A stretch of 63,606 bases of DNA, the filler included, from Stramenopiles sp. TOSAG23-6 (lineage: Eukaryota): the NCBI GenBank assembly GCA_900128565.1. It is 46 parts of 46 records of this genome, joined end to end, with 100 filler letters (N's around TTAATTAATTAA, not from the genome) between each part and the next. Parts side by side here need not be neighbours in the genome. Positions count along the whole stretch, not along the records: positions 23,676 to 24,963 come from LT639311.1; 45 more parts are not named here. One strand, 5' to 3'. Shown here one piece after another: positions 14,670 through 58,428 of this stretch (the stretch's first letter is position 1; each line of letters starts with the position of its first letter). A model generated the notes under the pieces. That model ran no database searches, was not told the DNA's origin, and saw nothing but the letters and a program-made list of their open reading frames with translations. The translations under genes were made by a program, and so were the position numbers.

Positions 14670-15236
14670 TAATAATCTATACGATATGTCAATAGTATTT
14701 GAAATAAATAAATGTGTACATTATCATGTAAAACCAAACATCATTCATCTTTTGAATAAAAACGAAAATACAACCAATAATCTGCACAATATGTCAATAG
14801 TATTTTTAAATAAATATCTATATCCTGTAAAACGAAACATCATTCATCTTTTTAATAAACAAAAATACCAAAAATAATATGTACAATATATCAATAGTAC
14901 TTGAAATAAATATTCATTATCGTGTTAAAGCAAACATCATTCATCTTTTGAATAAAAACAAAAATACGGCAAATAATCTATACAATATGTCATTAGTATT
15001 TGAAATAAATTACCACTTTTATCATGTACAAGCAAACATCATTCATCTTTTGAATAGAAAAGAAAAATACATTCTATAATCTATACAATATGTCAAGAGT
15101 ATTTAAAATAAATAAACATTTTTTCTGTGGAAAAACAAACTTCACTCATCTTTTGAATATAAAAAAACATACTGTAAATAATTTGTGGAATATGTCAATA
15201 GTATTTGAAATAAATAAACATTTTTATCATGTAAAA
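14670..15236 (+). repeat. ~102-bp AT-rich tandem repeat (about 5.5 diverged units)
   Basis: Recurring AATATGTCAATAGTATTTGAAATAAAT…CAAACATCATTCATCTTTTGAATA at 97-105 nt spacing; same family as 55454-56730. Confidence 0.93.
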
Positions 15237-15336: not shown

Positions 15337-16509
15337 CATGGGTTTTTACAATACATATGAGTATTTGATTGCCATGTATTGCGAAAAAAACACGAAATCA
15401 CAAAAAAAAATGTTAGGTACAAAATTTCGTACGAAAAAAAAAATAAATTCAAAATTGAAAAAAAATAAAACATACATGTAGGTAAATCACATGATTTTAT
15501 CTCTGTCGAAATTCCAGCAAAGCCAGCAAAATTAATATGAATGCTATAGGATTGTAAAACGTCCGAAATCGTATAGTTTGTATTGGAAGGTGTTGAACCA
15601 CAAGAGCCAGTACAAGTTATATTACAACCTCCAGTTGTAGTAGATAAAAAATTACCACTAGAGACTTGCACTCTTAATTTATAAGTTGTGGTAGTGACAC
15701 CGTCCACAGTGTTTGTATTTGTGATTGTATTTAAAACCTTTCCAATCGCCCCAGTAGGATTTCCTCTGTCAGGATTCCATTCTTTATTGATAGAGCAAGA
15801 TGTTTTAGCCGCATTATATAAACAACCTTCATGCTGAGATATACAATTTTCTAAGGATGGCGTCTTTGAAAATATACCTTTTGTACACGTATCTTCACAT
15901 AATGCGCTTTGTCTTATTATAGCATCCTTAGGAAATTTTGGGGCAGTATTTATCGATACAGTTAGTATTGCAACTGGAGATGTATCACCAACGGCTTCTG
16001 ATGCAAATTTGGTCATTGTATTACCCAGTGTACTCACCTTTAATGGTAAAACTGAGCGAAAATCTGGGGGTAGGAAACGAACTGTTGGTATCATTGCATT
16101 TTGTAAATCCAAAGTAGATGCCTGAGTTTGAGTATTTACTACAGATATTTGATATTGTCCCAAGAGAGATGGCATTTTACACACAATTAAAGTTTGCGTT
16201 GCACTTTGCACAATACACTCAATACCCAGCTCAGATGATCCAACATTCACTTTTAATTTGGACAAAGGTGGGAAAAGATGTCCATGGATTTTGATGTATA
16301 CATCGCCTTTGATTGGTAAAACAAGAGGTACTGGGTAAAGTTTGCCAATATTTAAAAATGTTTGTTCATTAATAACAGTTTGACGCATTGTTGAAGATAT
16401 TGTGTTTTTCGTGTCAAGTGCTGCAGCAAATTCTAAACTTGTTATAAACGGTTTTGACTCTGTGTACGTATCATATATTAAAGACCCAGCTGCTGTTATT
16501 TTTCTGGCT
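15337..16509 (-). CDS. Probable extracellular IPT/TIG-domain protein, partial
   Basis: IKIHGHLF…VNVG…C…TQTLIVCKMP and W.SNTHMYCK patterns. Confidence 0.6.
15374..15475 (-). other. GT-AT intron
   Basis: aca t|GTATGTTTT…GCAATACAT|gg caa gives LPTW-QSNTHMYC; no AG near the 3' end. Confidence 0.8.
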
Positions 16510-16791: not shown

Positions 16792-17911
16792 TTTACAATT
16801 GATGCAAAAACGAAATCTCTTTTTTTACGAGCATTTACAGTTTTACACAATATGTATACAGAAATAACGAAACTAGAAAATAAACGATTCGGTTCAGTTT
16901 TTTCAACGTTTCAGATTGATTTTAGGCAAAACATTTGTTTGTGTTTGGAAGCATTAGAATCCATTCCATTTATGAAAAAACAAAAAAATATACAAAATAT
17001 ACAAAATATACATACTACAAACACTCAACCCCTTGTGGGACATTCAAAACATCAAGATAATACAAAATTAAATACAAAATTAAATACAAAATTAAATACA
17101 AAATTAAATACAAAATCAATCGTACATGATGAAACAAAAAGTGACAAACATGTAAAAAATAGTACAACAAAAAATAATGCAGAATTTTCTACAATGATTA
17201 AAAACAATGTAAAAGTAATTCGAAGTTTGTTAGGTACAAAATTATCTACGAAAAAAAATAAATTTGAAAGTTTCCTTGAGATGAAAAAACGCCAATATAA
17301 ACAGAAAAAAAGTTTTTTTTCAATTTTACAAAAAAAAGATAAACATCCTAACCCTAACTCTACCACTACAAAATCTTCAATATTGGTTAACAATGGAAAC
17401 AAAATTGAAAATATTGAAAATATTGAAAAAAAAAGAAAAACTTGAAAAAACAGTGAAAAAACAATATAAAAATGCTACAATTTCTTCATTTCAAGTAAAA
17501 ACATCTCAAACATCTCAAGTTAAATTTGTACAACAACAAACTGTAGAAAAACATCAAAAACAGCATATGTATATAAAAAAACAACAAAAAAACAACAAAA
17601 TTCAAAATGAACAAAAGAAACTGAACTCTTATCAACGTCAACAATCAAAATCTTCAAACATAATGCAAATGACGTATACAAATTTTGTCCAATTTAAAAC
17701 AAAACCATTTTTAAATACAAAACGTATGTATGTTTTAGTTTTTTTTTTTTTTTTTTTTCGTACGAAATTTTGTACCTAACAATTTTTTTTGAATTTTTTT
17801 TTAGATATTTTTCCAAAATACATTTTACAACGTGATTCAGCTTGCCGGGGGATCCAAAAGATTTTTCGTGGATATAGAATAAGACGAGGACAAATCCCAC
17901 CTTTTGAACAT
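16792..17911 (+). CDS. Low-complexity protein with IQ motif, partial (frameshift near 17430)
   Basis: ACRGIQKIFRGYRIRR exon flanked by repeat-family introns. Confidence 0.55.
17728..17823 (+). other. GT-AT intron
   Basis: cgt at|GTATGTTTT…CCAAAATACAT|t tta caa puts the IQ exon in frame. Confidence 0.78.
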
Positions 17912-18215: not shown

Positions 18216-19407
18216 ATATTTGTTCGTATTCAAATTGCAATGGAGAAATTCGAAATTCAGCAAAAACAATATCAATTGGAATCATACCTAATATACATAA
18301 GTTAATGACACGTGTCAAAATATATTGACTATAGACCGTGTTTTCTACAGTTCCATCATTATCAACATTTTTATAGCATTCTGGAACAATTGATAATAAC
18401 AATATATGAAATATTTCAAAAGCCATTTTTTTTTTAATATGTTGAATTCCAAAATTTTGAAGCAAAGAAAATTCATTTGTATCAAAATTAAAATTATTTG
18501 TATCAAAGGTTGTATCAAAATGATTTGTAGAATTTTTACATTTTTCTTCAAAAAGTAAAATGGAATCAAATACATCTAAAATATTGGAACATAACTGCTC
18601 ATAACAATATTGGGTATTTCGTGTCAACATCTTTTTTAATTGCTGAAATGTTTTATACAATATTAAATGTATTGATAAAGTAGTATACACTATAAATGGT
18701 GACTTTTGTACAGATTTTTTTTTTTCACCGTGTACATTTTCTTTTGAAATGAATAGAAAATCACCATGACAAAAAAGAATTTCAGAATGTTCAGTGAATA
18801 CATTGTTTGTATCATTTTTATCATTATACACTTTATTGTGTTTATGTTGTAATAATGATATATACAGAGATGATGTATGTTCTGTACCATATTTTGATAC
18901 TTGAACACATTCTGAAATTTTTTTTTGTGATTCTGAAATTTTTTTTTGTGATTTTGGTAATTTCCAAATTGAAATATTTTTTTCAGTTTCTATAAATAAA
19001 AAAAAATCATTATACGCAGTTGATAATATAGTATCACATACAGAATATCGATGTGTACACTGTATTCTATTGCATACCTGATTCTGGTTGGTAATGGTAG
19101 ATGGAATGAGTACTGCGTAGATTTCGACGTATTTTTGTGTAGACATGAGAAAAAATATTTTTTTATGTTTCGTATTTTTTATGTTTTTCGTGTTTTTCGT
19201 GTTTTTCATATCATAGGATACAATAAATTCAATATCCAAAAGATGATTCGAAAGATGTAATGTTTTACAAAATAGTATATCAGCATAATGCAAGCTATAC
19301 TGTGAAGAATTATCCTGTGTGTTAGAGTTAGGGTTAGGGTTTGTGAGGCTATTTTTATGTGTATTCTGTTGATGATCACTAAATAGTTGAATTTCAATTT
19401 TTCTAGG
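18216..19407 (-). CDS. Hypothetical protein exon
   Basis: Open frame of more than 350 codons ending at a repeat-family donor ATATGTTTT (18215). Confidence 0.55.
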
Positions 19408-22129: not shown

Positions 22130-22341
22130 GTATGTTTTATGTTTTGAATTTCGAATATCGTTTTTTTTTTTTTGGTTTTCGTACGANNNNNNNNNNNNNN
22201 NNNNNNNNNNNNNNNNNNNNNNNNNNNNNNTTAATTAATTAANNNNNNNNNNNNNNNNNNNNNNNNNNNNNNNNNNNNNNNNNNNNTGAAAAAATATTTT
22301 GGAAAAAAATTAAAAAAAATTAAAAAAAATTAAAAACATAC

Positions 22342-23448
22342 ACGTTCTCATTGCAAAATGTAAGCGACTATTTCGCATACGACTGATACAAACATTCATA
22401 ATGCCACGTGTCTTTTTTCGTATTCGAACGTAATCAAGCCATGTACTTTGGAAAATATTTTTTTAGTAAAAAATCTAAAAAAATTGTTAGGTACAAAATT
22501 TTTTTTACAAAAAAAAAAAAAAAAAAAATTCAATTTCAAAATTTAAAAAAAAAAAAAAAACATACATTGATGAAAAGGTTTGCTTTTTTCAATTAATTTC
22601 CAACGCAGAGCAAAACGAGATATTAATAATCGTTGCCGTTTTTGTTCCATAGCAGTTTCGTGCCATGTTGTAAATGCAGTACTTTTTTCAATTAATTTCC
22701 AACGCAAAGTGAAACGAGATAATAATAATCGTTGTCGTTTTTGTTCAATAGCAGTTTCGTGCCATGTTGTAAATGCTGAACTTGCAGTTGTAAATTTTAT
22801 TCGCCAAATTATACTCTTCATTTTTTGTATTTGTTTTCTAAGCTCAAACACGAAATAAGTCCACTTTTGGAATGCAAATGTCAAACGACCAAATGTTGAA
22901 TGTCTGGCTAATTGCAATATAATTCGTTTCAATCGTAATCGTTTTTGATAAAATATCTTCCATTTTTGAAACACCAAATATTGTAAAAAATATTTCAATT
23001 TTTTTTTTTTTTTTTTTTTTTGTTAGGTACAAAATTTACTATGAAAATATTTTTGAATTTTTTTTTTCTGAAAATAAGCAAAATCAAAATCAAAATGTAA
23101 CCTACATTGGTACAAGATGCACAGAACGCAATCCACATGTTAATTCAGCCATATCTCTTCTTTGTTTTGCCATTTTAGTTTGAGCTGTCCAGGCGCGAAA
23201 AATTGTAGATAATAATGATAAAGTGGAATGACTAGCAATTGATCGTACACTGAATTGTAAAAAAAAAAAAAAAAATTAAATTTTTGTTAGGTAAAAAATT
23301 TCGTCCAAAAAAAAAAAAAAAAAATAAATGAATGAATAAAGCCATAATGAAAACATATATACTATGTGCGACTTCCTTACTTAATGTTGCTAAAGATGAT
23401 CTTAAATCATTATTTTCTGCCATTAATTCATTTAATCGTTGTTCATTC
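22342..23448 (-). CDS. Sfi1-like (centrin-binding type) W-repeat protein, partial, multi-exon
   Basis: Repeated AF..W motif (FAFQKW, SAFTTW, PFHQW) at ~33-aa spacing. Confidence 0.7.
22441..22565 (-). other. GT-AT intron
   Basis: caa t|GTATGTTTT…CAAAGTACAT|gg rebuilds the repeat Trp codon (PFHQW). Confidence 0.85.
23250..23358 (-). other. Repeat-family intron, AT-AG variant
   Basis: agt at|ATATGTTTTC…TACAATTCAG|t gta; this donor gives the right phase, the nearby GT 4 nt upstream does not. Confidence 0.6.
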
Positions 23449-23750
23449 ATGTACTGTGAAATAAATGTATATATTTGAAATAAGTGTACAAAAAAATTTC
23501 AAAATTTCAAAAAAAAAAAAAATTTTAAAATTTCAAAAAAAAAAAAAAAAAAAATTTTAAATTTTAAAATTTTTTNNNNNNNNNNNNNNNNNNNNNNNNN
23601 NNNNNNNNNNNNNNNNNNNTTAATTAATTAANNNNNNNNNNNNNNNNNNNNNNNNNNNNNNNNNNNNNNNNNNNNATTTCGAATTTATTTTTTTTTCGTA
23701 CGAAATTTTGTACCTAACAAATTTCGAATTCAATGTTTTTTACAATATAT

Positions 23751-24963
23751 GTTTTACGACCAACAACAACAGATGTTGACGGTAAGCAATCAAAATCACA
23801 AAATAATTTACCAACAAAACAAGAAGTTGTTGTATGGTTGACTCTAACTTCACACCAACAAGCATTATATCATGCAATGCTTGAAAAGACACAAGAAGAA
23901 CAAGATAGGAGAGACGATATCGCTGCAGAAAATGGAGATATTGCCGAAGGAAGATGTATCTTAAAAGAATTATGTGAGCTAGTACAGATATGTAATCATC
24001 CTCTTCTTGTTGCTGAAAAAGAATTTGGTAAGAAAGATTTGTCAAGTTCGAAAGATGTCCATAGACGTGATAATACGAATCGTAAGTATCGCGATTTTGA
24101 CATGTATTATGAAAATGATGAAAGTATTTCATCCAATAGTGATAATGATATAAGAAATATTGAAATGAATAGAAATGTTGAATCGGATGTAGAGTCTGAT
24201 ATTGAAAACAAGAGACTTGAGGATGATGTGAAATCAAAAAATGTACGTAAATTGTTATTATCGGCCTCGAGAAAAACACCTGCAAAGATTGAATTTGTTA
24301 GTGCTTTGTTACGGAATTTACATACTGAAGGGCACAGAGTATTAATATTTAGTAGATCTTGTAGAATGCTTGATCTCATAGAGAATTTCGTACTTAAAAC
24401 TGCCAAATATAAACATTATAGACTTGATGGAAGTATTCAAGATGCATCAGAAAGAGCTCAGTTGATTGAAAAGTTTAATCGAAAAAAGGATATTTTTTGT
24501 TTTTTAATTACTACACAATGTGGAGGTGTAGGTATTAATCTAACAGGTGCCGATCGAGTCATTATGCTTGATCCTGGTTGGAATCCAGCAGCTGATGAGC
24601 AAGCTGTTGATAGAGTATATCGAATTGGTCAAACTCGGCCAGTATTGGTATATAGGTTAGTTACATGTACGTTTTCACATCATAAATTTATTAATTGTTT
24701 TTTTCATAGGAAATTTCGTACCTAATGATTTTTTTCATGATTTCGTTTTTTTTTTCACAATACATGTGGTGGCGCAGAGGAACATATTTATAGACGTCAG
24801 ATTTTTAAAGGATCTTTGAGTCGTTCAGCAATTGAGCAAGATTTTAAAGCAACGAGACATGTATGTTTTACTTTTTTTGAATTTCAATTTTTTTTTCGTA
24901 CAAAATTTTGTACGTAACAAAAAAAACAAAAAAAACATATTTTTCACAATACATTTCAAAGCA
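23751..24963 (+). CDS. SNF2-family helicase, ERCC6L/PICH-like, C-terminal helicase region
   Basis: QICNHPLL, GHRVLIFS, GGVGINLTGADRVIMLDPGWNPAADEQAVDRVYRIGQ, spliced YRLVTCGGAEEHIYRRQIFK. Confidence 0.9.
24667..24765 (+). other. GT-AT intron
   Basis: aca t|GTACGTTTT…CACAATACAT|gt ggt restores the SNF2 YRLxTCGxxEExIYxRQ motif. Confidence 0.9.
24861..24954 (+). other. GT-AT intron
   Basis: aga cat|GTATGTTTT…CACAATACAT|ttc gives RHF (cf. the R-Y/F-F motif of ERCC6-type helicases). Confidence 0.8.
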
Positions 24964-26711
24964 NNNNNNNNNNNNNNNNNNNNNNNNNNNNNNNNNNNNN
25001 NNNNNNNTTAATTAATTAANNNNNNNNNNNNNNNNNNNNNNNNNNNNNNNNNNNNNNNNNNNNCATTGTGCAACCATCACAGGGTCGTCCCATCCAGGGT
25101 CAGCGAGAGCGCCGTGCATTTGTAGATTGGCAGTCTTTGGGCCCTTTCGGAGACGGAATCGTATATCAGACATGGGAGTTGCTAAATTTGTTATGCTATC
25201 TATGTTCGTTTCTTTCTGTGTATGCTGGGATTTAAAGGAATCCGTTTTTTTAGTATGTAACATAGAAAACAACAAAGAACAAAAAAGTGTCAAGATTTTG
25301 AAATGATAATATAGAGACAGAAGAAGAAGAACACCACAAGAAGAAAATAAATTAAAATACAACAACAACACAACAGCAAACAAAATCATCTTCTTTATAT
25401 TAATATTCCCATACTGTGCCTATATTAATATTATATTGAAAGAGAAGGTACGGGTCGTGCTGTTTTTTGCTTTCTATATTTATAACAGTCCAGGCTATTA
25501 TTAGACTAGGGGTAATAATAGAGACTACTACTACTTCGATTTAATATAGGACTAGCACGACATTACACACAGGTGGCCTTTATCTCGACAAAATTTACAC
25601 TAGTAACTACTAACTACTATTATATAACATCAACACAGCATCAAACGCATCATCTCTGCGCGGCGGGCATTCGGCATTCCTTTTTTAGCCGTCGTCGTCT
25701 AAATCTAAATAAAACGGACATGTATGTGATCATGTGTGATTATTTATTCCATTTATATACATAAAGATATAAGTGGAATAAGAGAGACTCTCTCTCGATG
25801 ATATATTCGTATAAAATATTATAATAATAAATTTTTTCGCGAAACACAAAAAACACAAAATTCTCGACGAGGAATAATAATAGTCCTCGCAGTATTAAAA
25901 TGCATGTATAATATATACACTCGTTTACGTATTTTCCACACACTATTTGACGCACCTCCTTTACCTCCTTTTGAACCACTGAAAATTTATTTTAACTGCA
26001 CCTGTATTATGTTCTTTCGGTGTTTTATTTTTTTATGTCCTGTTTAAACGCTTCCTCGTTCGCTTGATAAGAAAACTCATGACAGTAGTCGCACTATCAC
26101 GGGGAACCGAGCAGATAAGTTGTGGCCTGTAACCGGCCGGCATTTTTCCGGGCGGATGCCACTGTCCACTTTGGAGGTCGCATTCATAATGTTTTCGAAC
26201 AGTTTCTGTCGCTTTTCTATAAAGGCTTCCGTCTCGGCCTTTCTTCCACGCCACGGGGACGCGCCGGGGGATCTAATTGTACCCCGGGGCGACGTTCGCA
26301 GCTTTGCAATCGGGCAAGTTGCTCTGGGAGAAGTCTCGGGAGAGTTGACANNNNNNNNNNNNNNNNNNNNNNNNNNNNNNNNNNNNNNNNNNNNTTAATT
26401 AATTAANNNNNNNNNNNNNNNNNNNNNNNNNNNNNNNNNNNNNNNNNNNNTGGGAAGAATTTAAATTGAGAAATTCACCACGTCCACTATTACCTACGTA
26501 GTAATTGTACAAAACGAATGCATTATTTAATTGAAAAATAAAAGATGCATTACAACTCAAGTGTTCAAATTGTTTTATGGTATTTACTAATTACTATTCT
26601 ATTCTCGTTTTCTTGGGCTAAAAAAAAAAGCAAATGGTACGTTGAAATCCGTTAATTTGGTCAATGAAGTCAAGTCAACCTGTCGGTCGTCGATCATTTT
26701 AGAAAGTCAAA

Positions 26712-27530: not shown

Positions 27531-27979
27531 TTGAAATTTGAAAATTTGAGGTTTTTTTTGCTTTACTGTTATAAGTATTAAAATGTTTATAAAACAGAAA
27601 TCAATTCATTCTAAATAATAGATGGTATGAAATTCATATTTATTTCTTTCAATTTCAATTGAGAGTATAATATAAAAATAATATTTCATCCATTTGTTTT
27701 TGTTTGTTTTTGTTTGACGTCTTTTTACACTAAAAANNNNNNNNNNNNNNNNNNNNNNNNNNNNNNNNNNNNNNNNNNNNTTAATTAATTAANNNNNNNN
27801 NNNNNNNNNNNNNNNNNNNNNNNNNNNNNNNNNNNNTTTTTTTTTCGTACGAAATTTCGTACCTAACAAATATTTTTAGATTTTTTTTGAATTTTTTTTT
27901 GAAATTTTTTTTTTCGTACGAAATTTTGTACCTAACAAATGTTTTTAGATTTTTTTTGAAATATTTTTACAAAATACTT

Positions 27980-28129
27980 TACAATTAACACGAATTCGAA
28001 AAATAGTTGAAGCAATGGTTTTAAGAAGAGAAAAAAAAAATGTACTTTCTAATATTTTGCCAAAAATTGAATTTTTAAGAATATTACCCATGTTACCGAA
28101 CCAAACGAATGTATATGAAACATGTATGT

Positions 28130-28324: not shown

Positions 28325-29024
28325 CTAAAAATTTTTTTTTTTTTCATCATATATTTGTAATTTTTAAAATTTAAAATTTTTTTTTTTGAAATGTTTTTTA
28401 ACCTTTTGAAATGTTTTACATTGTACAAACAATGCATGTCTACTCAAATATTGCTGTGACACACAAACAAAAAAAAATGTATCAAAAACATCTACAAAAA
28501 ATAAAAAAGATGTAACAAAAAATCAAGCTCTACACCCTAACCCTAACCCTAATAACAAACAAACATCAATATTAAAAATGTCACAAAAAAACACAAAACA
28601 TATTTTTACAGTATTAAGAAAAGCCGCACAACATCCATTGTTATTACGTACTTTATATACAAATACTATAATACAAAAACTAGCACAATTTTTTTTGGGT
28701 ATGAAAATTTTTGGTACTCAAGCGACCTATTCAATGTATGTTTTATGTTTTTTCAATTTTTTATCTAAATATATATATTTTTTTCATACGAAATTTTGTA
28801 CCTAAGAAATTCTGATTTTTTTTTTTACTATTTTCCAAAAATATTTTTTTTCATACGAAATTTTTTACCTAAGAAATTCTGAATTTTTTTTTTACTATTT
28901 TCGAAAAATAAATGGTATTGGAAGAGTTATTATCGTATTCAGATTATAAATTACATGAATTATGTAGTGAATATAAAGATGAAAATAAATGGATTGGTGA
29001 TCAATGTTTGCCTATGGATCAAAT
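27980..29024 (+). CDS. SMARCAD1/Fun30-like SNF2 helicase, partial, multi-exon
   Basis: VLRREKKNVL..ILPK, LRKAAQHPLLLR, spliced LEELLSYSDYKLHELC. Confidence 0.8.
28736..28913 (+). other. GT-AT intron with duplicated 3' module
   Basis: tca at|GTATGTTTT…GAAAAATAAAT|g gta ttg gaa keeps the frame into SDYKLHELC. Confidence 0.78.
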
Positions 29025-29669: not shown

Positions 29670-29796
29670 GTATGTTTTTTTTTAAATTTTGAAATTCAAA
29701 TTTTTTTACTATGATTTTTTTTTTTGTTTTTTTATAAAAATTTTGTACCTAACAATTTTTTTTAGATTTTTCTTGAAATATTTTTCCAAAATACAT

Positions 29797-32070: not shown

Positions 32071-33140
32071 GAAATGTAGAATGGGTCCAAAAAAATTGTC
32101 CAATCACAAATATTCGTGCAAAAATGTTTTCAAAAAAATGGGGAATAGAAAAATTAGAACAAATGATGTATCTTTTTTTTTTTTTTTACAAAAAAATCAA
32201 TTTTTTTTTTTTTGGTTTTTATAGTAAATTTTGTACCTAACAATTTTTTTTTAGATTTTTTTTGAAATATTTTTTCATCATACATGACACGTGCTCAGAA
32301 TGCACGTTTAGTACAAGCTTTTAAGAAATGGGAAGAATTCGCTGAATTTGATCGATGTCAAGAAATGTATGTTTTTTTTCTGTCCAAAAAATTCCTTTTT
32401 TTTTTTTTTTTTTTTTGTTTTTTTTGTATGAAATTTTGTATGAAATTTCGTACCTAATACACCAAAATATACCAAAATATATATAGTACACAAAACATGG
32501 CTGAACGATATTTAAAATGGAAGGGTTCACGAACTGTTATATCAATGATATTAAATAAAGAACATGCCCATATATTATCTGCATTTAATAAATGGAATAA
32601 TACTATTGCACAAATGATTATTAATGAACGGGAAGATGCATGTAAGTTTTATTTTTTTTTTAATTTTTTAATTTTTTTTTTTTGAAAATTTTGTACCTAA
32701 CAATTTTTTTTTTATTTTTTTTTTGTATGAATTTTTTTTTTATAAAAATTTTGTACCTAACAATTTTTTTTTTGGTAAAAATTTTTGAAATATTTTTTCA
32801 AAATACATCCATTATAATACAAAAGGCTATTCGTGGTTTTATTTCAAAATGTAGAATAATTCAACTCAAACAAAATAATGCAATCATTGTTTTACAAAGA
32901 ATAGCAAGAGGACGACAAGGGCGTAAACAATATAAACGTAAAGTGTTTGAAAGAATTCGGTATGATGCAGCTGCACTCATTCAAAACACTTTTAGGAATT
33001 GGGATGCTCGAATGATGGCAAAGGTTGTGATGCAAAAATTAAGAGAAGAGAAAGCAATAGGGCGAATGCAAGCAGTGTATCGTGGTCATCGAGGGCGAGA
33101 AGAATATAGACGTAAGATAGAAGAACGTAATGAAAACAAT
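32071..33140 (+). CDS. IQ-motif / W-repeat protein, partial, four exons
   Basis: AFKKW, AFNKW, IQKAIRG, LQRIARG, MQAVYRG; exons join in frame across three GT-AT introns. Confidence 0.78.
32168..32285 (+). other. GT-AT intron
   Basis: atg at|GTATCTTTT…CATCATACAT|g aca. Confidence 0.72.
32367..32498 (+). other. GT-AT intron
   Basis: gaa at|GTATGTTTT…CACAAAACAT|g gct gaa, phase consistent. Confidence 0.78.
32642..32808 (+). other. GT-AT intron with duplicated branch module
   Basis: gca t|GTAAGTTTT…CAAAATACAT|cc att gives DAS-IIIQKAIRG (IQ motif). Confidence 0.85.
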
Positions 33141-45703: not shown

Positions 45704-47263
45704 NNNNNNNNNNNNNNNNNNNNNNNNNNNNNNNNNNNNNNNNNNNNTTAATTAATTAANNNNNNNNNNNNNNNNNNNNNNNNNNNNNNNNNNNNNNNNN
45801 NNNATTCAAGTTATTCTCGTTTTTCAACAACACCTGAATGGGAGTCTACTTTACGAAGTCATACAATATCAAAGAAATCTTTGGTAAATGAAAAAAGAAG
45901 AATGCGACATGGGCAGAAAAATCAGACATCGGAAAATGTAGATATCAAAAGATGTACACCGATGAACCTATTTACTGACTAATTATCTAATGATGAAGAA
46001 TATAAATAGAATTCATACAATATCAAAGAAATCTTTGGTAAATGAAAAAAGAAGAATGCGACATGGGCAGAAAAATCAGACATCGGAAAATGTAGATATC
46101 AAAAGATGTACACCGATGAACCTATTTACTGACTAATTATCTAATGATGAAGAATATAAATAGAATNNNNNNNNNNNNNNNNNNNNNNNNNNNNNNNNNN
46201 NNNNNNNNNNNNNNNNNNNNNNNNNNNNNNNNNNNNNNNNNNNNNNNNNNNNNNNNNNNNNNNNNNNNNNNNNNNNNNNNNNNNNNNNNNNNNNNNNNNN
46301 NNNNNNNNNNNNNNNNNNNNNNNNNNNNNNNNNNNNNNNNNNNNNNNNNNNNNNNNNNNNNNNNNNNNNNNNNNNNNNNNNNNNNNNNNNNNNNNNNNNN
46401 NNNNNNNNNNNNNNNNNNNNNNNNNNGGTTCCCACTTGGTTCACTAACAATTGTTATTACATATCTCTGAGATGTAATATTTTTATTGAATTTTAGGACA
46501 CATATGATCATTTTTTTTCATTTTACATTTTTTTGTATGAAATTTTGTACGTAAGCCAAAAGTCGTCCAGATGCCGGCTTGAAAATTTAAATCCGCGATG
46601 ATCATCAGAATCATCGGAAAAAAATAACTTGATAGAAAAAATGAGTCAATTGGCCTTTTTTGGATATACATGAAATTAGTTGGGTAGAGGTCATTTTTAA
46701 TTACTATGAGAGCAAAGCCACCACCTCCTCCTCTTACTATATTTTCGAATAGTAGTCCTAATGTATCTTTATTACATATCTCTGAGATGTAATATTTTTA
46801 TTGAATTTTAGGACACATATGATCATTTTTTTTCATTTTACATTTTTTTGTATGAAATTTTGTACGTAAGCCAAAAGTCGTCCAGATGCCGGCTTGAAAA
46901 TTTAAATCCGCGATGATCATCAGAATCATCGGAAAAAAATAACTTGATAGAAAAAATGAGTCAATTGGCCTTTTTTGGATATACATGAAATTAGTTGGGT
47001 AGAGGTCATTTTTAATTACTATGAGAGCAAAGCCACCACCTCCTCCTCTTACTATATTTTCGAATAGTAGTCCTAATGTATCTNNNNNNNNNNNNNNNNN
47101 NNNNNNNNNNNNNNNNNNNNNNNNNNNTTAATTAATTAANNNNNNNNNNNNNNNNNNNNNNNNNNNNNNNNNNNNNNNNNNNNAAAAAAAAACTAAAATT
47201 TGTTAGGTACAAAATTTCGTACGAAAAAAAAAATTCGAAATTGAAAAAAAAACTAAAACATAC

Positions 47264-48369
47264 ATTGTCATTCCAACAGTTACAGCTGCACAAATTCCCA
47301 TTGACGCAATGACCATCGGTGGTAGGACCAACATCATCAGGAAACAAAGCAATAATGTACTTCCAGAAACAAATACAATTTTCCCAGATGTTAACAACAT
47401 AATAGATACGGCATCAGCAGCAGATTTTCCGGAATTAAGTATTGTGAAAAAATATATTTTTCAAAAAAAATCGTTAGGTACAAAATTTCGTACGAAAAAA
47501 AAATAAATTTGAAATTCCTACTAAAAACATACAATCTCCTGTTGAAAACGAGAAAATAAAAACATCGAATAATCGATTGACATGGCGAGAGATACAGCAA
47601 TCATCAAAGATGGTGCGACATTACTTACAGATACTCGGAATGTTATCGGATACATAATCAACACACTCACTGAAGAACAAATGATTAAATTTGCTAATGT
47701 ACATATATTGTGAAAAAATATTTTTTTGTAAAAAAATCGTTAGGTACAAAATTTCGTACGAAAAAAAAATTGAAAATTGAAAAAAAAATAAAACATACAT
47801 AAAACAAGACGAACATTTTGAACAACACAGCCTAAAATGAATAGAGCAAAGGGCATCGTCAAAGATGAGATATTCATAGTAGTTTCTATACCCTGTTTTA
47901 CAGAACTAAGCATCGAAATTACATCACTTATTTTTACAGAGAGAGTTGTGGGAGATTTTATGGCTTCTTCATGAAGAAAATTGCTAATCGATTTTGCAAT
48001 CGGACCATTAGAAGCTACTTTCGCATTATCGCACTGAGCGACTTGAAATTGCATGTATTGTGAAAAAATATTTTTTTAGTCAAAATTTGTTTTTTTGTTA
48101 AGGTGCAATTTTTTTTGAATCTTTGTAAAAAAAAAAAATAAATTAAAAAATTGAAATGAAAACGTACATTATAGTCGATTTCCTTCCGTCTGCTAAAAAT
48201 TTTGATTGTAACGCATTCCAGAAAAGACCAGTTTGAATAGATACATCAAATTCCACTTTGAATTGTTGTTCCTTTCCAAGTTTTAAACCATTGAGAAAAG
48301 GGCTCGTAAATGGAATTGTTTTCGGTGGTAGGGAATTGATATATTGGAGGTCAATTATTGTCATATCAC
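47264..48369 (-). CDS. MMPL/RND-family transporter, partial, four exons
   Basis: Spliced AMSIDYSMFLFSRFQQEI|NSGKSAADAVSIMLLTSGKIVFVSGSTL matches the MmpL DY.LF..SRF.EE…AG..V..SG.T motif. Confidence 0.85.
47437..47532 (-). other. GT-TT intron (TT direct repeat at both junctions)
   Basis: gag att|GTATGTTTT…CACAATACTT|aat tcc gga gives MmpL-like spacing. Confidence 0.8.
47703..47797 (-). other. GT-AT intron
   Basis: tta t|GTATGTTTT…CACAATATAT|gt aca, phase consistent. Confidence 0.82.
48053..48167 (-). other. GT-AT intron
   Basis: ata at|GTACGTTTT…CACAATACAT|g caa ttt, phase consistent. Confidence 0.8.
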
Positions 48370-51319: not shown

Positions 51320-52468
51320 TTCAGGTTCAGGTTCAGGTTCAGGTTGAATTTTAACATCTTTGAGACGATTTTCCCCAAAAGGGAGCTCTCCCCCATCAAC
51401 CCGATATACAATATCTCGGTTGCCTCCGCGAAGAAGGCTTTTGTGAACGTTTTTCATTCCCGATATATACTTTTCCGCGATAATCCGAATTGGATCATAC
51501 AAGGAGGTAGACCCATCGGGATTGTCCAACAGTTGAACAAAAGCAAGTAATTGCTCAGCATTCAAAAGTTTAATATTTTCAAAAACTGTGTGAGGAATCG
51601 CATACTGAAAAGTTCTGTATCTGTTACGTCCTTCATCATCTGGAACCTGATCCCTGCTGATAACATAACGATGCCTATAATGAGTAGAACCGTGATTGTT
51701 TCCTTCAACTTGAGCGATCATTTGATCAACTTCCTTTGGGTCAACGTATCCCACAGCTTTAGGCATTTGACTAAATAAATCAAACATTTTTCCTGCTGTT
51801 GTGCTCAATTTGGCTATCTCACTTGCCTTAGTTGGATTATTTATCATGGCGATTAACACAAAATCAGGAATTTCTCGCATAGACTCTGGAACATATTTGA
51901 AATCCATAGATTCAAGAAGTGCGGCTTTTACTATGTCAGCATCATCTTTCAGCCTGTCAGATAAAACTCGAAACATACAAGACTTGATTGGACTAGACAT
52001 GAACTTGACTTTATCATCAAAAATATTCACATCACTGCAATTTTTTTTTAGGGATTCAAGATTTTCTACGAGACTGTCCGGAGCATAACTGCTTTTGGTT
52101 CTTTCTATCATAATAGAAATGACCTCATCGTGACATTGCAGGTTTTCTGGAAGTGTTTTATAGATGGATTTAGTGCAGTACAATGATGCAATAAGAACAT
52201 CTTGATCATCCCGTAAAGCTTCCGGTATATTCTGAAAGCATTCCTCTGGCGTATAGTTGTTCAGAGCATCTCTTTTCAATAACGCAATTACCACCTCTTT
52301 ATCGTTTATCAAATCACCAACGTCTTGCCATATAAACGAAGAATAGTCAACATAACCGTCACGAGTAACTTCTGCAATAACTTCATCTTTATTATGCCAG
52401 TCTATTGCTTTGGTTGTACCACAAAGCAACGCAATTGCGCTTAACATAATTAGAGCTTTAGAGATCAT
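51320..52468 (-). CDS. Signal-peptide protein with DUF4116-like repeats and (PE)n tail, copy 1
   Basis: DKEVVIAL, IPEALRDDQDVLIA, LSDRLKDDADIVKAA; hydrophobic N-terminus. Confidence 0.75.
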
Positions 52469-52531
52469 TTTCAAGTTGATCAATTTTGATATTTACTCAG
52501 TTCCTCTTCAGCAGGTAGAACTTCTACTCAC

Positions 52532-52597
52532 TCTTTCAAGCTTCTTTCAAGCTTCTTTCAAGCTTCTTTCAAGCTTCTTTCAAGCTTCTTTCAAGCT
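52532..52597 (+). repeat. 11-bp tandem repeat (CTTTCAAGCTT)n; identical at 53910-53975
   Basis: About six units running to the contig end. Confidence 0.9.
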
Positions 52598-52697: not shown

Positions 52698-53846
52698 TTC
52701 AGGTTCAGGTTCAGGTTCAGGTTGAATTTTAACATCTTTGAGACGATTTTCCCCAAAAGGGAGCTCTCCCCCATCAACCCGATATACAATATCTCGGTTG
52801 CCTCCGCGAAGAAGGCTTTTGTGAACGTTTTTCATTCCCGATATATACTTTTCCGCGATAATCCGAATTGGATCATACAAGGAGGTAGACCCATCGGGAT
52901 TGTCCAACAGTTGAACAAAAGCAAGTAATTGCTCAGCATTCAAAAGTTTAATATTTTCAAAAACTGTGTGAGGAATCGCATACTGAAAAGTTCTGTATCT
53001 GTTACGTCCTTCATCATCTGGAACCTGATCCCTGCTGATAACATAACGATGCCTATAATGAGTAGAACCGTGATTGTTTCCTTCAACTTGAGCGATCATT
53101 TGATCAACTTCCTTTGGGTCAACGTATCCCACAGCTTTAGGCATTTGACTAAATAAATCAAACATTTTTCCTGCTGTTGTGCTCAATTTGGCTATCTCAC
53201 TTGCCTTAGTTGGATTATTTATCATGGCGATTAACACAAAATCAGGAATTTCTCGCATAGACTCTGGAACATATTTGAAATCCATAGATTCAAGAAGTGC
53301 GGCTTTTACTATGTCAGCATCATCTTTCAGCCTGTCAGATAAAACTCGAAACATACAAGACTTGATTGGACTAGACATGAACTTGACTTTATCATCAAAA
53401 ATATTCACATCACTGCAATTTTTTTTTAGGGATTCAAGATTTTCTACGAGACTGTCCGGAGCATAACTGCTTTTGGTTCTTTCTATCATAATAGAAATGA
53501 CCTCATCGTGACATTGCAGGTTTTCTGGAAGTGTTTTATAGATGGATTTAGTGCAGTACAATGATGCAATAAGAACATCTTGATCATCCCGTAAAGCTTC
53601 CGGTATATTCTGAAAGCATTCCTCTGGCGTATAGTTGTTCAGAGCATCTCTTTTCAATAACGCAATTACCACCTCTTTATCGTTTATCAAATCACCAACG
53701 TCTTGCCATATAAACGAAGAATAGTCAACATAACCGTCACGAGTAACTTCTGCAATAACTTCATCTTTATTATGCCAGTCTATTGCTTTGGTTGTACCAC
53801 AAAGCAACGCAATTGCGCTTAACATAATTAGAGCTTTAGAGATCAT
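52698..53846 (-). CDS. Identical copy 2 of the DUF4116-like gene (duplicate contig)
   Basis: Contig 52698-53975 repeats contig 51320-52597. Confidence 0.75.
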
Positions 53847-54075
53847 TTTCAAGTTGATCAATTTTGATATTTACTCAGTTCCTCTTCAGCAGGTAGAACT
53901 TCTACTCACTCTTTCAAGCTTCTTTCAAGCTTCTTTCAAGCTTCTTTCAAGCTTCTTTCAAGCTTCTTTCAAGCTNNNNNNNNNNNNNNNNNNNNNNNNN
54001 NNNNNNNNNNNNNNNNNNNTTAATTAATTAANNNNNNNNNNNNNNNNNNNNNNNNNNNNNNNNNNNNNNNNNNNN

Positions 54076-56730: not shown

Positions 56731-56900
56731 NNNNNNNNNNNNNNNNNNNNNNNNNNNNNNNNNNNNNNNNNNNNTTAATTAATTAANNNNNNNNNNNNNN
56801 NNNNNNNNNNNNNNNNNNNNNNNNNNNNNNTTTTTTCGTACGAAATTTTGTACCTAACAATTTTTTTTTTTTTTTTTTTAAATATTTTTCTTAAATACAT

Positions 56901-58041
56901 ATTTCATGTTGCTGATCATGTTATATATGACTGGTGGAAAGATGAGGGGCGAGCTACACAAAGAGCAAGAGCAATTCAATATTGGCTAAAACGAGCAACT
57001 TTGAATACTATTCTCTTGGAAAAAACAGACATTATTAATCGTACTGCGGAACAAGCAAGATGTTATGGAATTCCATTTATAGATGTGTATATTGTTTTCC
57101 CTCAAAAATTGTGTAAACTTATTTCGTACGAAATTCCGTACCTAACGATTTTTTTTTTTTTTACTAACAAAAAAAAAAAAAAAAATATTTTTTCACAATA
57201 TATTATTTCGTACGAAATTCCGTACCTAACGATTTTTTTTACTAAAAAAAAAAAAAAAAAAAAAAATATTTTTTTTTCACAATATATGATACACAGAGGT
57301 TCTCAAATTCGTGTAGAGGCCGTCATGAGTCGGATTACTAAGCGGGATGACTATATTTGTCCATCACCAACGCGTGAAGATGTTGTACGTTTTATTATTT
57401 TTTTTTTCCGGTAAAAAAAAAATCGAATTTATTTTTTTATAAAAATGTTGTACCTAACAATTTTTTTATAATTTTTTTTGAAATATTTTTCCAAAATACA
57501 TGCTCAACAACCTGCGATGGAAGCATTACCACAAATCTTGGAACCATCATCATCTAAAGGGGAACAATATTTTGTAGATCCTGTAGTTGTCCTTGATTTT
57601 CAGTCACTTTATCCATCTTTAATAATTGCATATAATTTATGTTTTTCAACGTGTTTTGGGCATCTGAATACAAATCGACTTGGTGTTTTGCCAAAGTATA
57701 CAGCTCCAAAGGATGCTCTATTGCAAGCAACAAGACAAGCACAATTGCGAAAAACGTTTATTTCAAGCACTGGTTGTTGCTTCGCGCCAAGGAAGCAACG
57801 CGAAGGAGTTTTGCCACGTATGTTACGTACGTTTTCATTATGAATTTCAAATTTATTTATTTTTTCGTACGAAATTTTGTACCTAACAAATTTCGATTTT
57901 AATTTTTTTTACAATATATGTGAAATTCTTCAAATGCGAATCGTCTTGAAGAAAGCAATGAAGGAATGTAAATTAAGTGGTGATAGTGAAGAAGCATTAG
58001 TCCTAAACGCTAGGCAGCTGGGTCTGAAACTTATTGCTAAT
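56901..58041 (+). CDS. REV3: DNA polymerase zeta catalytic subunit, partial, four exons
   Basis: [71 protein letters not shown]. Confidence 0.96.
57087..57287 (+). other. GT-AT intron with duplicated 3' module
   Basis: gat gt|GTATATTG…CACAATATAT|g ata cac aga ggt gives FIDVIHRGSQ. Confidence 0.85.
57385..57501 (+). other. GT-AT intron, no junction direct repeat
   Basis: gat gtt|GTACGTTTT…CCAAAATACAT|gct caa caa gives DV-AQQPAME; no AG in the intron. Confidence 0.92.
57827..57919 (+). other. GT-AT intron
   Basis: tta c|GTACGTTTT…ACAATATAT|gt gaa att gives PRMLR-EIL; no AG in the intron. Confidence 0.92.
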
Positions 58042-58428
58042 ATATGTTTTATTTTTTTTTTTACAAAAAAATCGAATTTATTTTTTTATAAAAATTTTGT
58101 ACCTAACNNNNNNNNNNNNNNNNNNNNNNNNNNNNNNNNNNNNNNNNNNNNTTAATTAATTAANNNNNNNNNNNNNNNNNNNNNNNNNNNNNNNNNNNNN
58201 NNNNNNNAATCAAACAATGACAGTTTGATGTCAAAAAACTAATTTTGACAGCAAGTTTAAAATTTTCAAAATTCAATTTGACTTTTCGTGGACCGCAAAA
58301 AATCGGAAGAAGACAAAATTTGGATTTCCATTCTCCTTCTTCAATCAAATCTAAATATAAATATATTAAATTGCAATGTACATTTAGTGCCCCGTTTCTA
58401 AATATTTATTTCGTCACGATACCTATAT

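What the first reader, a model, noticed from the sequence alone, without database searches (positions are those of the whole stretch)
24660..24767. Introner-like structure: inverted termini plus a 2-nt target-site-like duplication
The element begins GTAT(G)TTTT and ends AAAATAC or CAATAC, a short imperfect terminal inverted repeat, followed by 2 nt. In about 20 of 28 complete copies those 2 nt equal the last 2 nt of the upstream exon (19 AT/AT, 1 TT/TT). Here the repeat extends to TACATGT on both sides. Established: introners are transposon-derived intron families, and a splice site can be co-opted from the target-site duplication. Inference: a MITE-like element targets AT and the duplicated AT becomes the acceptor. 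The termini could also pair in RNA and bring the ends together, as in euglenid nonconventional introns.
Basis: partly seen in the sequence, partly recalled or inferred. Interest (0 to 1): 0.85.

Follow-up and report, generated by a model that had tools for sequence, protein, structure and literature searches.

The report
Repeated intron family ending in AT
This 99-base stretch is a real intron in a helicase gene, one of a very large family of near-identical introns in a marine protist that begin with the usual GT but end in AT instead of AG; the proposed transposon footprint beside them is no more than chance would give.

Summary
The pattern is real. Window 24667-24765 is a 99-nt intron in an SNF2/ERCC6-like helicase gene; removing it restores VYRLVT-C-GGAEEHIY, colinear with 6 of 6 homologues. 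It belongs to a family with 63 model hits at E<0.01, about 55 copies, in 63.6 kb. Thousands of contigs in one seawater DNA run match it. Consensus: exon ..AT | GTATGTTTT – T-rich – TTTCGTACGAAA – TTTTGTACCTAAC – T-rich – CAMAATAC-AT | exon. Three informative DNA polymerase zeta junctions, and a UBA5 copy with AG where the others have AT, show that the last AT is intronic: these are GT-AT introns. Copies in three unrelated genes are about 93-95% alike, so the family is introner-like.

The transposon part is not supported. Exon-end and intron-end dinucleotides agree in 15 of 21 complete copies, against 13.1 expected from the two separate AT preferences. AT is its own reverse complement. Only 1 of 4 non-AT acceptors matches its exon. 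The inverted termini are 4-6 nt, show no covariation, and all copies are sense-oriented. No RNA covered the exons. A public gene model reads through this intron. Verdict: new variant of a known kind.

The parts
24667..24765 (+). The finding's intron, 99 nt, written in the GT..AT register. A 7-nt repeat lets the cut lie anywhere from 24662/24761 to 24669/24768 without changing the mRNA.
   Evidence: Sequence; same-frame ORFs on both sides; colinear with 6 of 6 homologues; model hit 60.6 bits, E 2.2e-18.
24662..24668 (+). Upstream copy of the 7-nt direct repeat TACATGT: exon TACAT plus the intron's GT.
24761..24767 (+). Downstream copy of TACATGT: the intron's TACAT plus the exon's GT.
24667..24675 (+). 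5' splice-site motif GTACGTTTT (family consensus GTATGTTTT).
24716..24726 (+). Branch-site-like core TCGTACCTAAT, 2 mismatches from the family core TTGTACCTAAC.
24746..24765 (+). Run of 10 T followed by the 3' box CACAATAC and the terminal AT.
23751..24666 (+). Upstream exon of the SNF2/ERCC6-like helicase (Helicase_C, SNF2-related domain).
   Evidence: Pfam Helicase_C E 5.1e-25; homologues.
24766..24860 (+). Downstream exon (GT completes the Cys codon, then GGAEEHIYRRQIFKGSLSRSAIEQDFKATRH).
24861..24954 (+). Next family intron in the same gene, GTATGTTTT..CACAATAC-AT, 94 nt.
   Evidence: 57.8 bits; exon continuity RH|FKA against P0235 RYFSS, read.
23676..23750 (+). 3' part of an upstream family intron, cut by the contig start; ends ACAATAT-AT.
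57385..57501 (+). Family intron in DNA polymerase zeta, exon GTT | GTACG..ATAC-AT | GCT. It fixes the register: the exon TT is kept and the AT is removed.
   Evidence: Val kept at the junction, as in 8 of 8 homologues.
57087..57287 (+). Family intron in DNA polymerase zeta with a tandem duplication of the branch/3' module; exon ..GATGT | GTATAT..ATATAT | G.
   Evidence: Val at the junction, as in 3 of 3 homologues; two model hits.
57827..57919 (+). Family intron in DNA polymerase zeta, exon TTAC | GTACG..ATATAT | GT. About 95% identical to the UBA5 intron.
   Evidence: (gives Arg as in 2 of 7 homologues; the alternative register gives Cys, 0 of 7).
4888..4995 (-). Family member in UBA5 with a canonical end: GCT | GTATTT..CAATAT-AG | GTT. 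The AG sits where the other copies have AT.
   Evidence: SEDA|VNGHIQ colinear with 5 of 5 homologues.
5394..5485 (-). UBA5 intron of the same subfamily as 57827-57919; ends ACAATAC-AC. Its upstream exon is lost at the contig end.
47437..47532 (-). The only TT/TT copy: exon ..GATT | GTATGTTTT..CACAATAC-TT | AATT.

Best explanation
The element is a spliceosomal intron of an SNF2/ERCC6-like helicase gene. It belongs to one very large family of sequence-similar introns (introner-like) in an AT-rich marine protist, probably a heterotrophic stramenopile.

Each copy carries its own splicing signals on the sense strand:
- a yeast-like donor GTATGT extended by T;
- an invariant branch-site box TTGTACCTAAC;
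- a T-rich tract;
- 33-44 nt after the branch A, a conserved 3' box TTTTTYCAMAATAY followed by the last two intron bases, usually AT.

Splicing removes GT..AT, so the acceptor is AU rather than AG. AG, TT and AC occur at the same position in a few copies.

Shown: the family, its signals, the exact length removed, and the register at the informative junctions.

Inferred:
- that a spliceosome of U2-type layout does the cutting;
- that the 3' box, not an AG scan or a fixed distance, marks the acceptor;
- that the family spread by copying into new gene positions. The mechanism is open: a DNA element, or reverse splicing of the intron RNA.

The AT at the exon end is best read as part of the donor or insertion-site consensus. 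It is not a demonstrated target-site duplication.
For: - **Intron reality.** Same-frame ORFs flank the element. The helicase junction is colinear with 6 of 6 homologues, and P0268 has the same Cys. The UBA5 junction is colinear with 5 of 5.
- **Register.** In DNA polymerase zeta, Val is kept at 57384|57502 as in 8 of 8 homologues and at 57086|57288 as in 3 of 3. Junction 57826|57920 gives Arg as in 2 of 7; the alternative gives Cys, 0 of 7. The UBA5 copy 4888-4995 ends in AG exactly where the others have AT.
- **Family size.** 63 model hits at E<0.01 and 35 exact copies of the 11-nt core.
- **Assembly breaks.** 22 of 92 contig ends coincide with a hit, as expected if the assembly breaks at a repeat.
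- **Environmental copies.** In seawater DNA run X3, 5064 contig pieces match the three intron stretches of one contig, 1566 of them at 99% or more. Diverse unlike flanks begin exactly at the intron borders (57502, 57827, 58043), while the exons have depth 6.5 or none.
- **Copying rather than mere constraint.** Introns in UBA5, DNA polymerase zeta and the helicase gene share about 93-95% identity, including positions outside the family consensus.
- **Orientation.** All copies lie on the host gene's strand wherever that strand is known.
Against: - There is no RNA evidence. The three metatranscriptome runs laid did not cover the exons of the contig tested, so splicing rests on protein colinearity.
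- The register one base to the left (TG..CA) is excluded by only one junction, 57823p: Arg against Cys at a variable position.
- The 46 contigs of the window are those that break at this repeat, so the window overstates the family's share of all introns.
- Summed contig depth is not a copy number and may include other organisms.
- Six or more copies carry TTTAG about 13 nt after the branch site. I have not shown that this AG is left unused in them.
- Which spliceosome acts is unknown. Rfam found no snRNA gene in the window.
Confidence: 0.75

Rival explanations
1. A MITE-like DNA transposon with GTAT..ATAC inverted ends inserts at AT, duplicates it, and the downstream copy becomes the acceptor.
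For: - Exon ends are AT in 33 of 40 junctions and intron ends are AT in 32 of 39.
- One TT/TT copy exists (47437-47532).
- In the UBA5 copy that ends in AC, the lost upstream exon must end in C, because the invariant Arg codon is split C|GT.
- Exon ends extend to TACAT in 4-5 copies; I estimate about 1 expected.
- Precedents in print: Micromonas introners with a 3-nt duplication that gives the AG, and Fritillaria (review PMC11282704, passages); TA-flanked inverted repeats in Physarum U12-type introns (bioRxiv 10.1101/2020.10.12.336362, passages).
Against: - 15 of 21 matches against 13.1 expected (P about 0.23).
- AT equals its own reverse complement.
- Of 4 complete copies with a non-AT acceptor, 1 matches (TT/TT). 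The other three are AT/TT, CT/AG and AT/AG.
- The young copy 57827-57919 has AC against AT.
- The inverted termini are only 4-6 nt and coincide with the splice motifs.
- No antisense or clearly intergenic copy among the 63 hits.
- No transposase domain in 10 long ORFs.
Confidence: 0.22
2. The family spreads as RNA. The excised intron reverse-splices into other transcripts at sites that look like a ligated junction (..AT|), and is then copied back into the genome.
For: - The copies are exclusively sense-oriented.
- The element's borders are exactly the intron's borders in thousands of environmental copies.
- There is a preference for one exon-end sequence without a variable duplication.
Against: - Nothing tests it directly.
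- Selection against antisense insertions into exons would also leave only sense copies in a compact genome.
- Tandem duplications of the internal module (57087-57287, 32642-32808, 28736-28915) are DNA-level events.
Confidence: 0.15
3. There is no mobility. These are ordinary old introns whose sequences are held alike by unusually long splicing signals and by gene conversion.
For: - The conserved blocks coincide with donor, branch site, T tract and acceptor box.
- Intron-poor or transformed lineages are known to carry extended signals (recalled).
Against: - Subfamily-specific variants outside those blocks are shared by introns in unrelated genes, for example GTACGTTTTCATTATGAATTTC and AACAAATTTCGAATT in UBA5, DNA polymerase zeta and the helicase gene.
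- 1566 environmental pieces are 99% or more alike.
Confidence: 0.08
4. The introns are cut by a minor (U12-type) or U12-like spliceosome that has expanded, as in Physarum. This concerns the machinery, not the origin.
For: - The first base is G or A before TAT (GT 36, AT 4 of 41).
- Donor and branch boxes are rigid and extended.
- The ends are not AG. One AT-AG copy exists (23251m).
- GT-AT is a known rare U12-type boundary: 17% of Physarum's non-canonical U12-type introns (passages).
Against: - Donor positions +5 and +6 are GT, not CC; GTATGT is the yeast-type U2 donor.
- A T-rich tract follows the branch box.
- The branch-to-end distance is 33-44 nt, against about 10-12 in Physarum.
- No snRNA gene was available to test.
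Confidence: 0.12
5. The intron ends are brought together by RNA pairing (AUGUAU with AUACAU), as in euglenid nonconventional introns. Alternatively the element is cut out of the DNA, as in ciliate internal eliminated sequences, which are bounded by a repeated dinucleotide.
For: - 88.9% of cells can pair in a 6-bp terminal helix.
- The termini pair in the minimum-energy fold of 6 of 10 copies.
- One copy of a repeated dinucleotide is retained, the same arithmetic as for TA-bounded eliminated sequences (recalled).
Against: - 0 of 6 pairs show a change on both sides, and all 500 shuffles reach the observed pairing.
- Fold z-scores run from -2.14 to +1.57.
- The GTACGT and GTTTGT variants are uncompensated.
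- The TT/TT copy breaks the pairing.
- Strand-specific donor, branch box and T tract, strict sense orientation, and ORFs without in-frame stops under the standard code all speak for splicing.
Confidence: 0.05

Closest known systems
Introner elements of Micromonas pusilla and Aureococcus (as described in review PMC11282704; passages read)
   Same: Thousands of short, sequence-similar introns in unrelated genes of a marine protist. One splice site is carried by the element. The element has no coding capacity.
   Different: Those have clear terminal inverted repeats and a 3-nt duplication that supplies a normal AG. Here the ends are GT..AT, the inverted termini are 4-6 nt, and the 2-nt repeat cannot be told from consensus.
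Non-canonical introns of the larvacean tunicates Fritillaria borealis and F. pellucida (NAR 2026, PMC13326754; sections 4 and 21 and passages read)
   Same: - 3' AT is the commonest acceptor there (44% and 34%).
- A Y-A-Y triplet almost always forms the intron's last three bases and often precedes the donor. Here CAT, TAT or CAC end 31 of 39 introns, and Y-A-Y precedes the donor in 23 of 40.
- A U-rich tract is kept.
   Different: - F. borealis donors are mostly AG, not GT, and the termini are highly diverse. Here one family has a conserved GTATGT donor.
- The organism here is not a tunicate: the best named UBA5 homologues are oomycetes and a MAST stramenopile.
Expanded U12-type introns of Physarum polycephalum (bioRxiv 10.1101/2020.10.12.336362; passages read)
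   Same: Mass intron gain. R-TAT donors. Short inverted termini flanked by a repeated dinucleotide (TA), proposed there as a transposon footprint. GT-AT is among the non-canonical boundaries.
   Different: The Physarum donor is RTATCTT with a TTTGA branch 10-12 nt from an AG or AC end. Here the donor is RTATGTTTT, the TACCTAAC box lies 33-44 nt from the end, and AT is the rule rather than the exception.
Non-canonical introners of Amoebophrya and euglenid or diplonemid nonconventional introns (review PMC11282704 passages; RNA 2025 PMC12621601 abstract and section 5)
   Same: Repeated intron families with short direct repeats at the borders that make the cut ambiguous. The ends can pair.
   Different: Those lack a conserved GT donor and, in the euglenid type, a pyrimidine tract; their borders vary and are GC-rich in hemistasiid diplonemids. 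Here donor, branch box and T tract are conventional, and only the last base departs from the rule.

Membership tests
Introner (intron family generated by a mobile element) | Many sequence-similar introns in unrelated genes of one genome | tested here: met
   63 model hits at E<0.01 in 63.6 kb. About 93-95% identity between introns of UBA5, DNA polymerase zeta and the helicase gene. 5064 matching contig pieces in DNA run X3.
Introner (intron family generated by a mobile element) | The copies are removed from the mRNA | tested here: inconclusive
   Protein colinearity at 6 junctions says yes. No RNA contig covered the exons tested.
Introner (intron family generated by a mobile element) | Positions are lineage-specific or polymorphic (recent gain) | not testable with these tools
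   No whole genome is held. No eukaryotic gene structures were available. Two metagenome scans found nothing.
MITE / terminal-inverted-repeat DNA transposon | Terminal inverted repeats of about 10 bp or more | tested here: not met
   Only GTAT..ATAC, or ATGTAT..ATACAT with the flanks. The next positions do not pair.
MITE / terminal-inverted-repeat DNA transposon | Target-site duplication that follows the target sequence | tested here: inconclusive
   15 of 21 matches against 13.1 expected. Of 4 complete copies with a non-AT acceptor, 1 matches (hand tally).
MITE / terminal-inverted-repeat DNA transposon | Copies in both orientations, and an autonomous partner encoding a transposase | tested here: not met
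   All copies are sense where the host strand is known. 0 of 10 long ORFs has a transposase domain. This covers the window only; the genome could not be searched.
U2-type GT-AG intron | GT (or GC) donor, branch site, pyrimidine tract | tested here: met
   GT 36 and GC 1 of 41. TTGTACCTAAC is invariant in the 12 seed copies. T runs follow it.
U2-type GT-AG intron | AG at the 3' end | tested here: not met
   AG in 3 of 39 and AT in 32 of 39. The register is fixed.
U12-type (minor) intron | Donor RTATCCTT and branch box TTCCTTRAC near the 3' end; minor snRNAs present | tested here: inconclusive
   The donor is RTATGTTTT, which differs at +5 and +6. The box TACCTAAC lies 33-44 nt from the end. No snRNA gene is in the window. 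The consensus is quoted.
Euglenid-type nonconventional intron | No conserved GT-AG or pyrimidine tract; ends held together by pairing | tested here: not met
   The GT donor and T tract are conserved. The terminal helix has 88.9% of cells paired but 0 of 6 pairs with compensatory change, and all 500 shuffles equal it. Fold z-scores are not significant.
Fritillaria-type non-canonical intron | 3' AT or AC within a Y-A-Y triplet, Y-A-Y before the donor, diverse non-GT donors, tunicate host | tested here: not met
   Y-A-Y at the 3' end in 31 of 39 and before the donor in 23 of 40. But donors are GT in 36 of 41, and the closest named homologues are stramenopiles. It works alike at the acceptor; it is not a member.
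Ciliate internal eliminated sequence (removal at the DNA level) | Excised from somatic DNA between a repeated dinucleotide, whatever the gene's strand | not testable with these tools
   The DNA runs did not cover the exons well enough to show an element-free form. Strand-specific signals and stop-free ORFs under the standard code speak against it.

The most novel reading that the evidence does not exclude
A free-living marine stramenopile lineage has moved its standard acceptor from AG to AU across the genome. One introner family with a normal GT donor, present in thousands to tens of thousands of copies, marks its own 3' end with a conserved box (CAMAATAC-AU) and spreads into ..AU| sites. Standard gene finders have missed the whole intron complement. 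Outside larvacean tunicates this would be the first lineage in which non-AG acceptors are the rule, and the first in which the donor stays canonical.
Probability: 0.4. Interest if true: 0.9.

Novelty: new variant of a known kind. Interest (0 to 1): 0.77.

Why it matters
- **How the spliceosome finds the 3' end.** Why nearly all eukaryotes end introns in AG, and how much freedom the spliceosome has there, is an open question. So far it has been approached mainly in one tunicate lineage. A protist in which a single uniform intron family uses GT..AT with an otherwise textbook donor, branch site and T tract would be a much cleaner system. One conserved 3' box could be mutated, and one base pair between the first and last intron bases (G with U instead of G with G) could be examined. 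snRNAs and U2AF could be compared with those of relatives.
- **Gene models.** Gene models for such genomes are systematically wrong. The public model for this very gene reads through the intron to a stop.
- **Intron gain.** It adds a case of mass intron gain in marine plankton. It also warns that a short repeat at intron borders is not by itself a transposon footprint.

Tried and rejected

- Whole genome: none is held.
- Script machine: lost, so all tallies after that were made by hand from printed alignments.
- Rfam on the whole window: 0 matches, so no snRNA could be compared with the motifs.
- Metagenome contigs: the 25-nt core and a gapped core-plus-3'-box pattern both found 0 loci, so the sample of non-AT copies could not be enlarged.
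- PDB search with the 31-residue downstream exon: no match. I used homologues instead.

**RNA and polymorphism tests**
- The single DNA polymerase zeta contig was then laid. No RNA contig and almost no DNA contig covered its exons.
- So neither splicing nor presence/absence polymorphism could be read.
- The listed joints link parts of different family copies. They are not intron-less alleles.

**Literature**
- A search by motif returned only primers.

**Ideas on the organism that were dropped**
- Diplonemid or euglenozoan: those introns are GC-rich without GT.
- Larvacean tunicate: the acceptor rule is similar, but the best named UBA5 homologues are oomycete and MAST stramenopile.

**Registers and acceptors rejected**
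- An AT..AC register (2 nt to the left) is rejected by the conserved Val at two DNA polymerase zeta junctions.
- A longer 5-nt duplication (TACAT) occurs in only 4-5 of about 40 exon ends. This is suggestive, but it was noticed after the fact.
- Choice of the acceptor by distance from the branch site is rejected, because the distance varies from 33 to 44 nt (hand counts).
Full report
**What the window is**

The 63,606 bases are not one locus. They are 46 contigs of 1,273-1,299 bp, sorted by length and joined by N44-TTAATTAATTAA-N44 linkers. GC content is 18-44%. The finding lies in contig 23676-24963.

Long ORFs read without in-frame stops under the standard code. The best named homologues of the UBA5 gene are oomycetes and a MAST stramenopile. 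A source's label on a 100%-identical predicted CDS contains 'MAST'. DNA runs that hold the sequence are seawater metagenomes, plus small runs of a coded 'organism A'. I take the organism to be a marine heterotrophic stramenopile. This is an inference.

**The element at the coordinates**

The plus strand of the contig encodes an SNF2/ERCC6-like helicase (Helicase_C E 5.1e-25; homologues). ORFs 23718-24725 and 24741-24917 share a frame.

TACATGT occurs at 24662-24668 and at 24761-24767. Removing any 99-nt register between them gives ..PVLVYRLVT-C-GGAEEHIYRRQIFKGSL... This is colinear without a gap with 6 of 6 homologues, and P0268 reads VYRLVTCGTVEE. No register gives GT-AG. The sensible ones are GT..AT (24667-24765) and AT..AC.

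The same contig holds a second copy (24861-24954) and the 3' part of a third (23676-23750).

**The family**

Twelve copies align over their whole length. The layout is:
- exon ..AT | GTATGTTTT;
- a T-rich stretch;
- TTTCGTACGAAA, a perfect palindrome;
- TTTTGTACCTAAC;
- a T-rich stretch;
- GAAATATTTTTYCAMAATAC, then AT | exon.

The 11-nt core has 35 exact copies in the window. A sequence-only covariance model gives 127 hits at E up to 10. Of these, 63 have E<0.01. After merging 6 split hits and dropping 2 antisense shadows, that is about 55 introns.

Twenty-two of the 92 contig ends coincide with a hit. The assembly evidently broke at this repeat, which also means the window is enriched for it.

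Wherever the host gene's strand is known, every copy is in the sense orientation. This holds for the UBA5, helicase, DNA polymerase zeta and MMPL-like genes and several long ORFs. One weak hit (17200-17270, minus strand) lies opposite to two others in its contig, and its host is unclear.

**Which bases are removed**

Most copies cannot tell, because the exon ends in AT and the intron ends in AT. Contig 56831-58107 (DNA polymerase zeta, PF00136 hits) has three informative junctions:

| Junction | Sequence at the borders | GT..AT register gives | Homologues | Alternative |
|---|---|---|---|---|
| 57384\|57502 | ..GAT GTT \| GTACG..ATACAT \| GCT | EDV-AQQPAME | Val in 8 of 8 | Asp in the AT..AC register |
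| 57086\|57288 | ..GATGT \| GTATAT..ATATAT \| G | DVIHRGSQ | Val in 3 of 3 | not scored |
| 57826\|57920 | ..TTAC \| GTACG..ATATAT \| GT GAA | LREIL | Arg in 2 of 7 | Cys, 0 of 7 |

In UBA5 the copy 4888-4995 (minus strand) is GCT | GTATTT..CAATAT-AG | GTT. It gives SEDA-VNGHIQ, as in 5 of 5 homologues. Its AG aligns with the AT of the others.

So the last two bases are the acceptor position, and the family is GT..AT. The register one base to the left (TG..CA) is excluded by the third junction only.

**Tallies**

These were made by hand. The unclear copies listed in the observation check were left out.

| Position | Counts |
|---|---|
| Intron start | GT 36, AT 4, GC 1 of 41 |
| Intron end | AT 32, TT 3, AG 3, AC 1 of 39 |
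| Exon end | AT 33, TT 2, AC 2, GT 2, CT 1 of 40 |

The distance from the branch A to the 3' end is 33-44 nt in seven copies counted. The end is therefore not set by distance alone.

**Is the 2-nt repeat a footprint?**

In 21 complete, well-defined copies the two dinucleotides agree in 15 (14 AT/AT, 1 TT/TT). The margins of those 21 predict 13.1 matches (P about 0.23). The pooled margins predict 68%.

The six mismatches are TT/AT, AC/AT, GT/AT, CT/AG, AT/TT and AT/AG. Among the four complete copies with a non-AT acceptor, one matches.

A further hint: the UBA5 copy that ends in AC must follow an exon ending in C, because the invariant Arg codon is split C|GT. Exon ends also extend to TACAT in 4-5 copies. 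I record these as hints only.

AT is its own reverse complement. The same bases therefore lengthen the 'inverted repeat' to ATGTAT..ATACAT.

That 6-bp helix can form in 88.9% of cells. However, no pair shows a change on both sides, and all 500 shuffles do as well. The termini pair in the minimum-energy fold of 6 of 10 copies, with z-scores from -2.14 to +1.57.

**Is the family mobile?**

The UBA5 intron 5394-5485 and the DNA polymerase zeta intron 57827-57919 differ by 4 substitutions and 1 indel in about 94 columns. The 3' 74 nt of the helicase gene's first intron belong to the same subfamily. They share stretches that are not part of the family consensus. Constraint on splice signals does not explain that; copying does.

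I laid four environmental runs on the DNA polymerase zeta contig. Results:
- The exons had next to no cover. DNA run X3 reached depth 6.5 over 56956-57124 only, and there was no RNA cover.
- The three intron stretches were matched by 769, 911, 16 and 5064 contig pieces (X7, X9, X10, X3). In X3, 1566 pieces were 99% or more alike.
- Summed word depth reached 161,454 in X3.
- Long loose ends of low agreement (0.36-0.44) began exactly at 57502, 57827 and 58043.

The repeat unit is therefore the intron, border to border, in thousands of different contexts. Depth sums are not copy numbers. RNA libraries may contain DNA or unspliced RNA, so this shows neither expression nor splicing.

How the family spreads is open. 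No transposase domain was found in 10 long ORFs. There are no long inverted repeats and no antisense copies. Reverse splicing would explain the strict sense orientation, but so would selection.

**Comparison with what is known**

- *Introners with a duplication that supplies the acceptor.* These are described for Micromonas. Non-canonical transposon-derived introns are described for Fritillaria, Amoebophrya and euglenids (review PMC11282704, passages).
- *Fritillaria.* This is closest at the acceptor. 3' AT is the commonest end in F. pellucida and F. borealis, a Y-A-Y triplet closes the intron and often precedes the donor, and duplicated U2AF subunits recognise such ends (PMC13326754, sections 4 and 21). 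Its donors, however, are mostly AG, and it is a tunicate.
- *Physarum.* It gained thousands of U12-type introns with short inverted termini flanked by TA. GT-AT is one of its rarer boundaries (passages).
- *Introner surveys.* They start from annotated introns and list only AG and AC as expected acceptors (PMC12130899, passages). A GT-AT family would be missed.

I found no description of GT-AT introns as the rule in any protist. This rests on searches, and on passages of one paper on single-cell stramenopile genomes. Supplements were closed.

The public CDS identical to this gene (P0234) starts inside the upstream intron and reads through the finding's intron to a stop (..VYRLVTCTFSHHKFINCFFHRKFRT).

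**Verdict**

The transposon footprint and the RNA-pairing idea are not supported by the tests possible here, and they are not excluded. RNA evidence is the missing piece.

Noticed in passing
whole window; linkers e.g. 24964-25063: The window is 46 separate contigs of about 1.28 kb, sorted by length and joined by N44-TTAATTAATTAA-N44. Neighbouring pieces are therefore not neighbours in the genome.
   Followed up: yes
23718-24725 (P0234): A public predicted CDS, 100% identical, starts inside the upstream intron and reads through the finding's intron to a stop. It also removes an in-frame 45-nt GT..AG piece (24243-24287) that aligns with a conserved helicase stretch and looks spurious.
   Followed up: partly
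4399-4416(-), 6618-6650(-), 7826-7837(-), 9296-9313(+), 17347-17358(+), 19321-19338(-), 28536-28553(+) and others: Short telomere-like blocks (CCTAACCCTAAC) give 14 matches against 0.09 expected. At the sites I checked against an ORF they lie on its sense strand and read in frame as Pro-Asn repeats. The unit CCTAAC is also the core of the intron's branch box.
   Followed up: partly
23258-23352(-) approx., contig 22287-23575: One family member starts ATATGTTTTC and ends ..ACAATTCAG. It is AT-AG both by family alignment and by the only open frames of the two flanking exons. Three more copies start ATATGT (33464m, 18221m, 58038p), but their 3' ends are cut off by contig ends.
   Followed up: partly
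57087-57287, 32642-32808, 28736-28915, 27837-27982: Some copies carry a tandem duplication of the internal module (palindrome, branch box, T tract), so they have two branch boxes.
   Followed up: partly
e.g. 17790-17800, 29760-29770, 22455-22470(-), 32250-32260, 27940-27950, 7500-7515(-): A subfamily has TTTTTAG about 13 nt after the branch box, upstream of the usual ..ATAC-AT end. Whether this AG is ever used as an acceptor is unknown.
   Followed up: no
exon ends at 15476-15480(-), 24662-24666, 38655 region, 61677-61681, 23097-23101(-): Four or five exons end in TACAT, the same five bases that end the intron. I estimate about one would be expected. This was noticed after the fact and not tested further.
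   Followed up: partly
14695-15172 and 55659-56650: Tandem arrays of units of about 100 bp whose units begin GTATTT and end AAATAC on both strands. This is a satellite unrelated to the intron family but with similar short termini (output).
   Followed up: no
51320-52597 and 52698-53975; 46474-46704 and 46789-47019: Pairs of contigs, or stretches within a contig, give identical ORFs or identical strings. These are duplicated pieces of the assembly.
   Followed up: no
1602-2413: An ATP synthase OSCP-like gene changes reading frame within an overlap of two ORFs, with no family intron there. This may be a frameshift error or a different kind of small intron.
   Followed up: no
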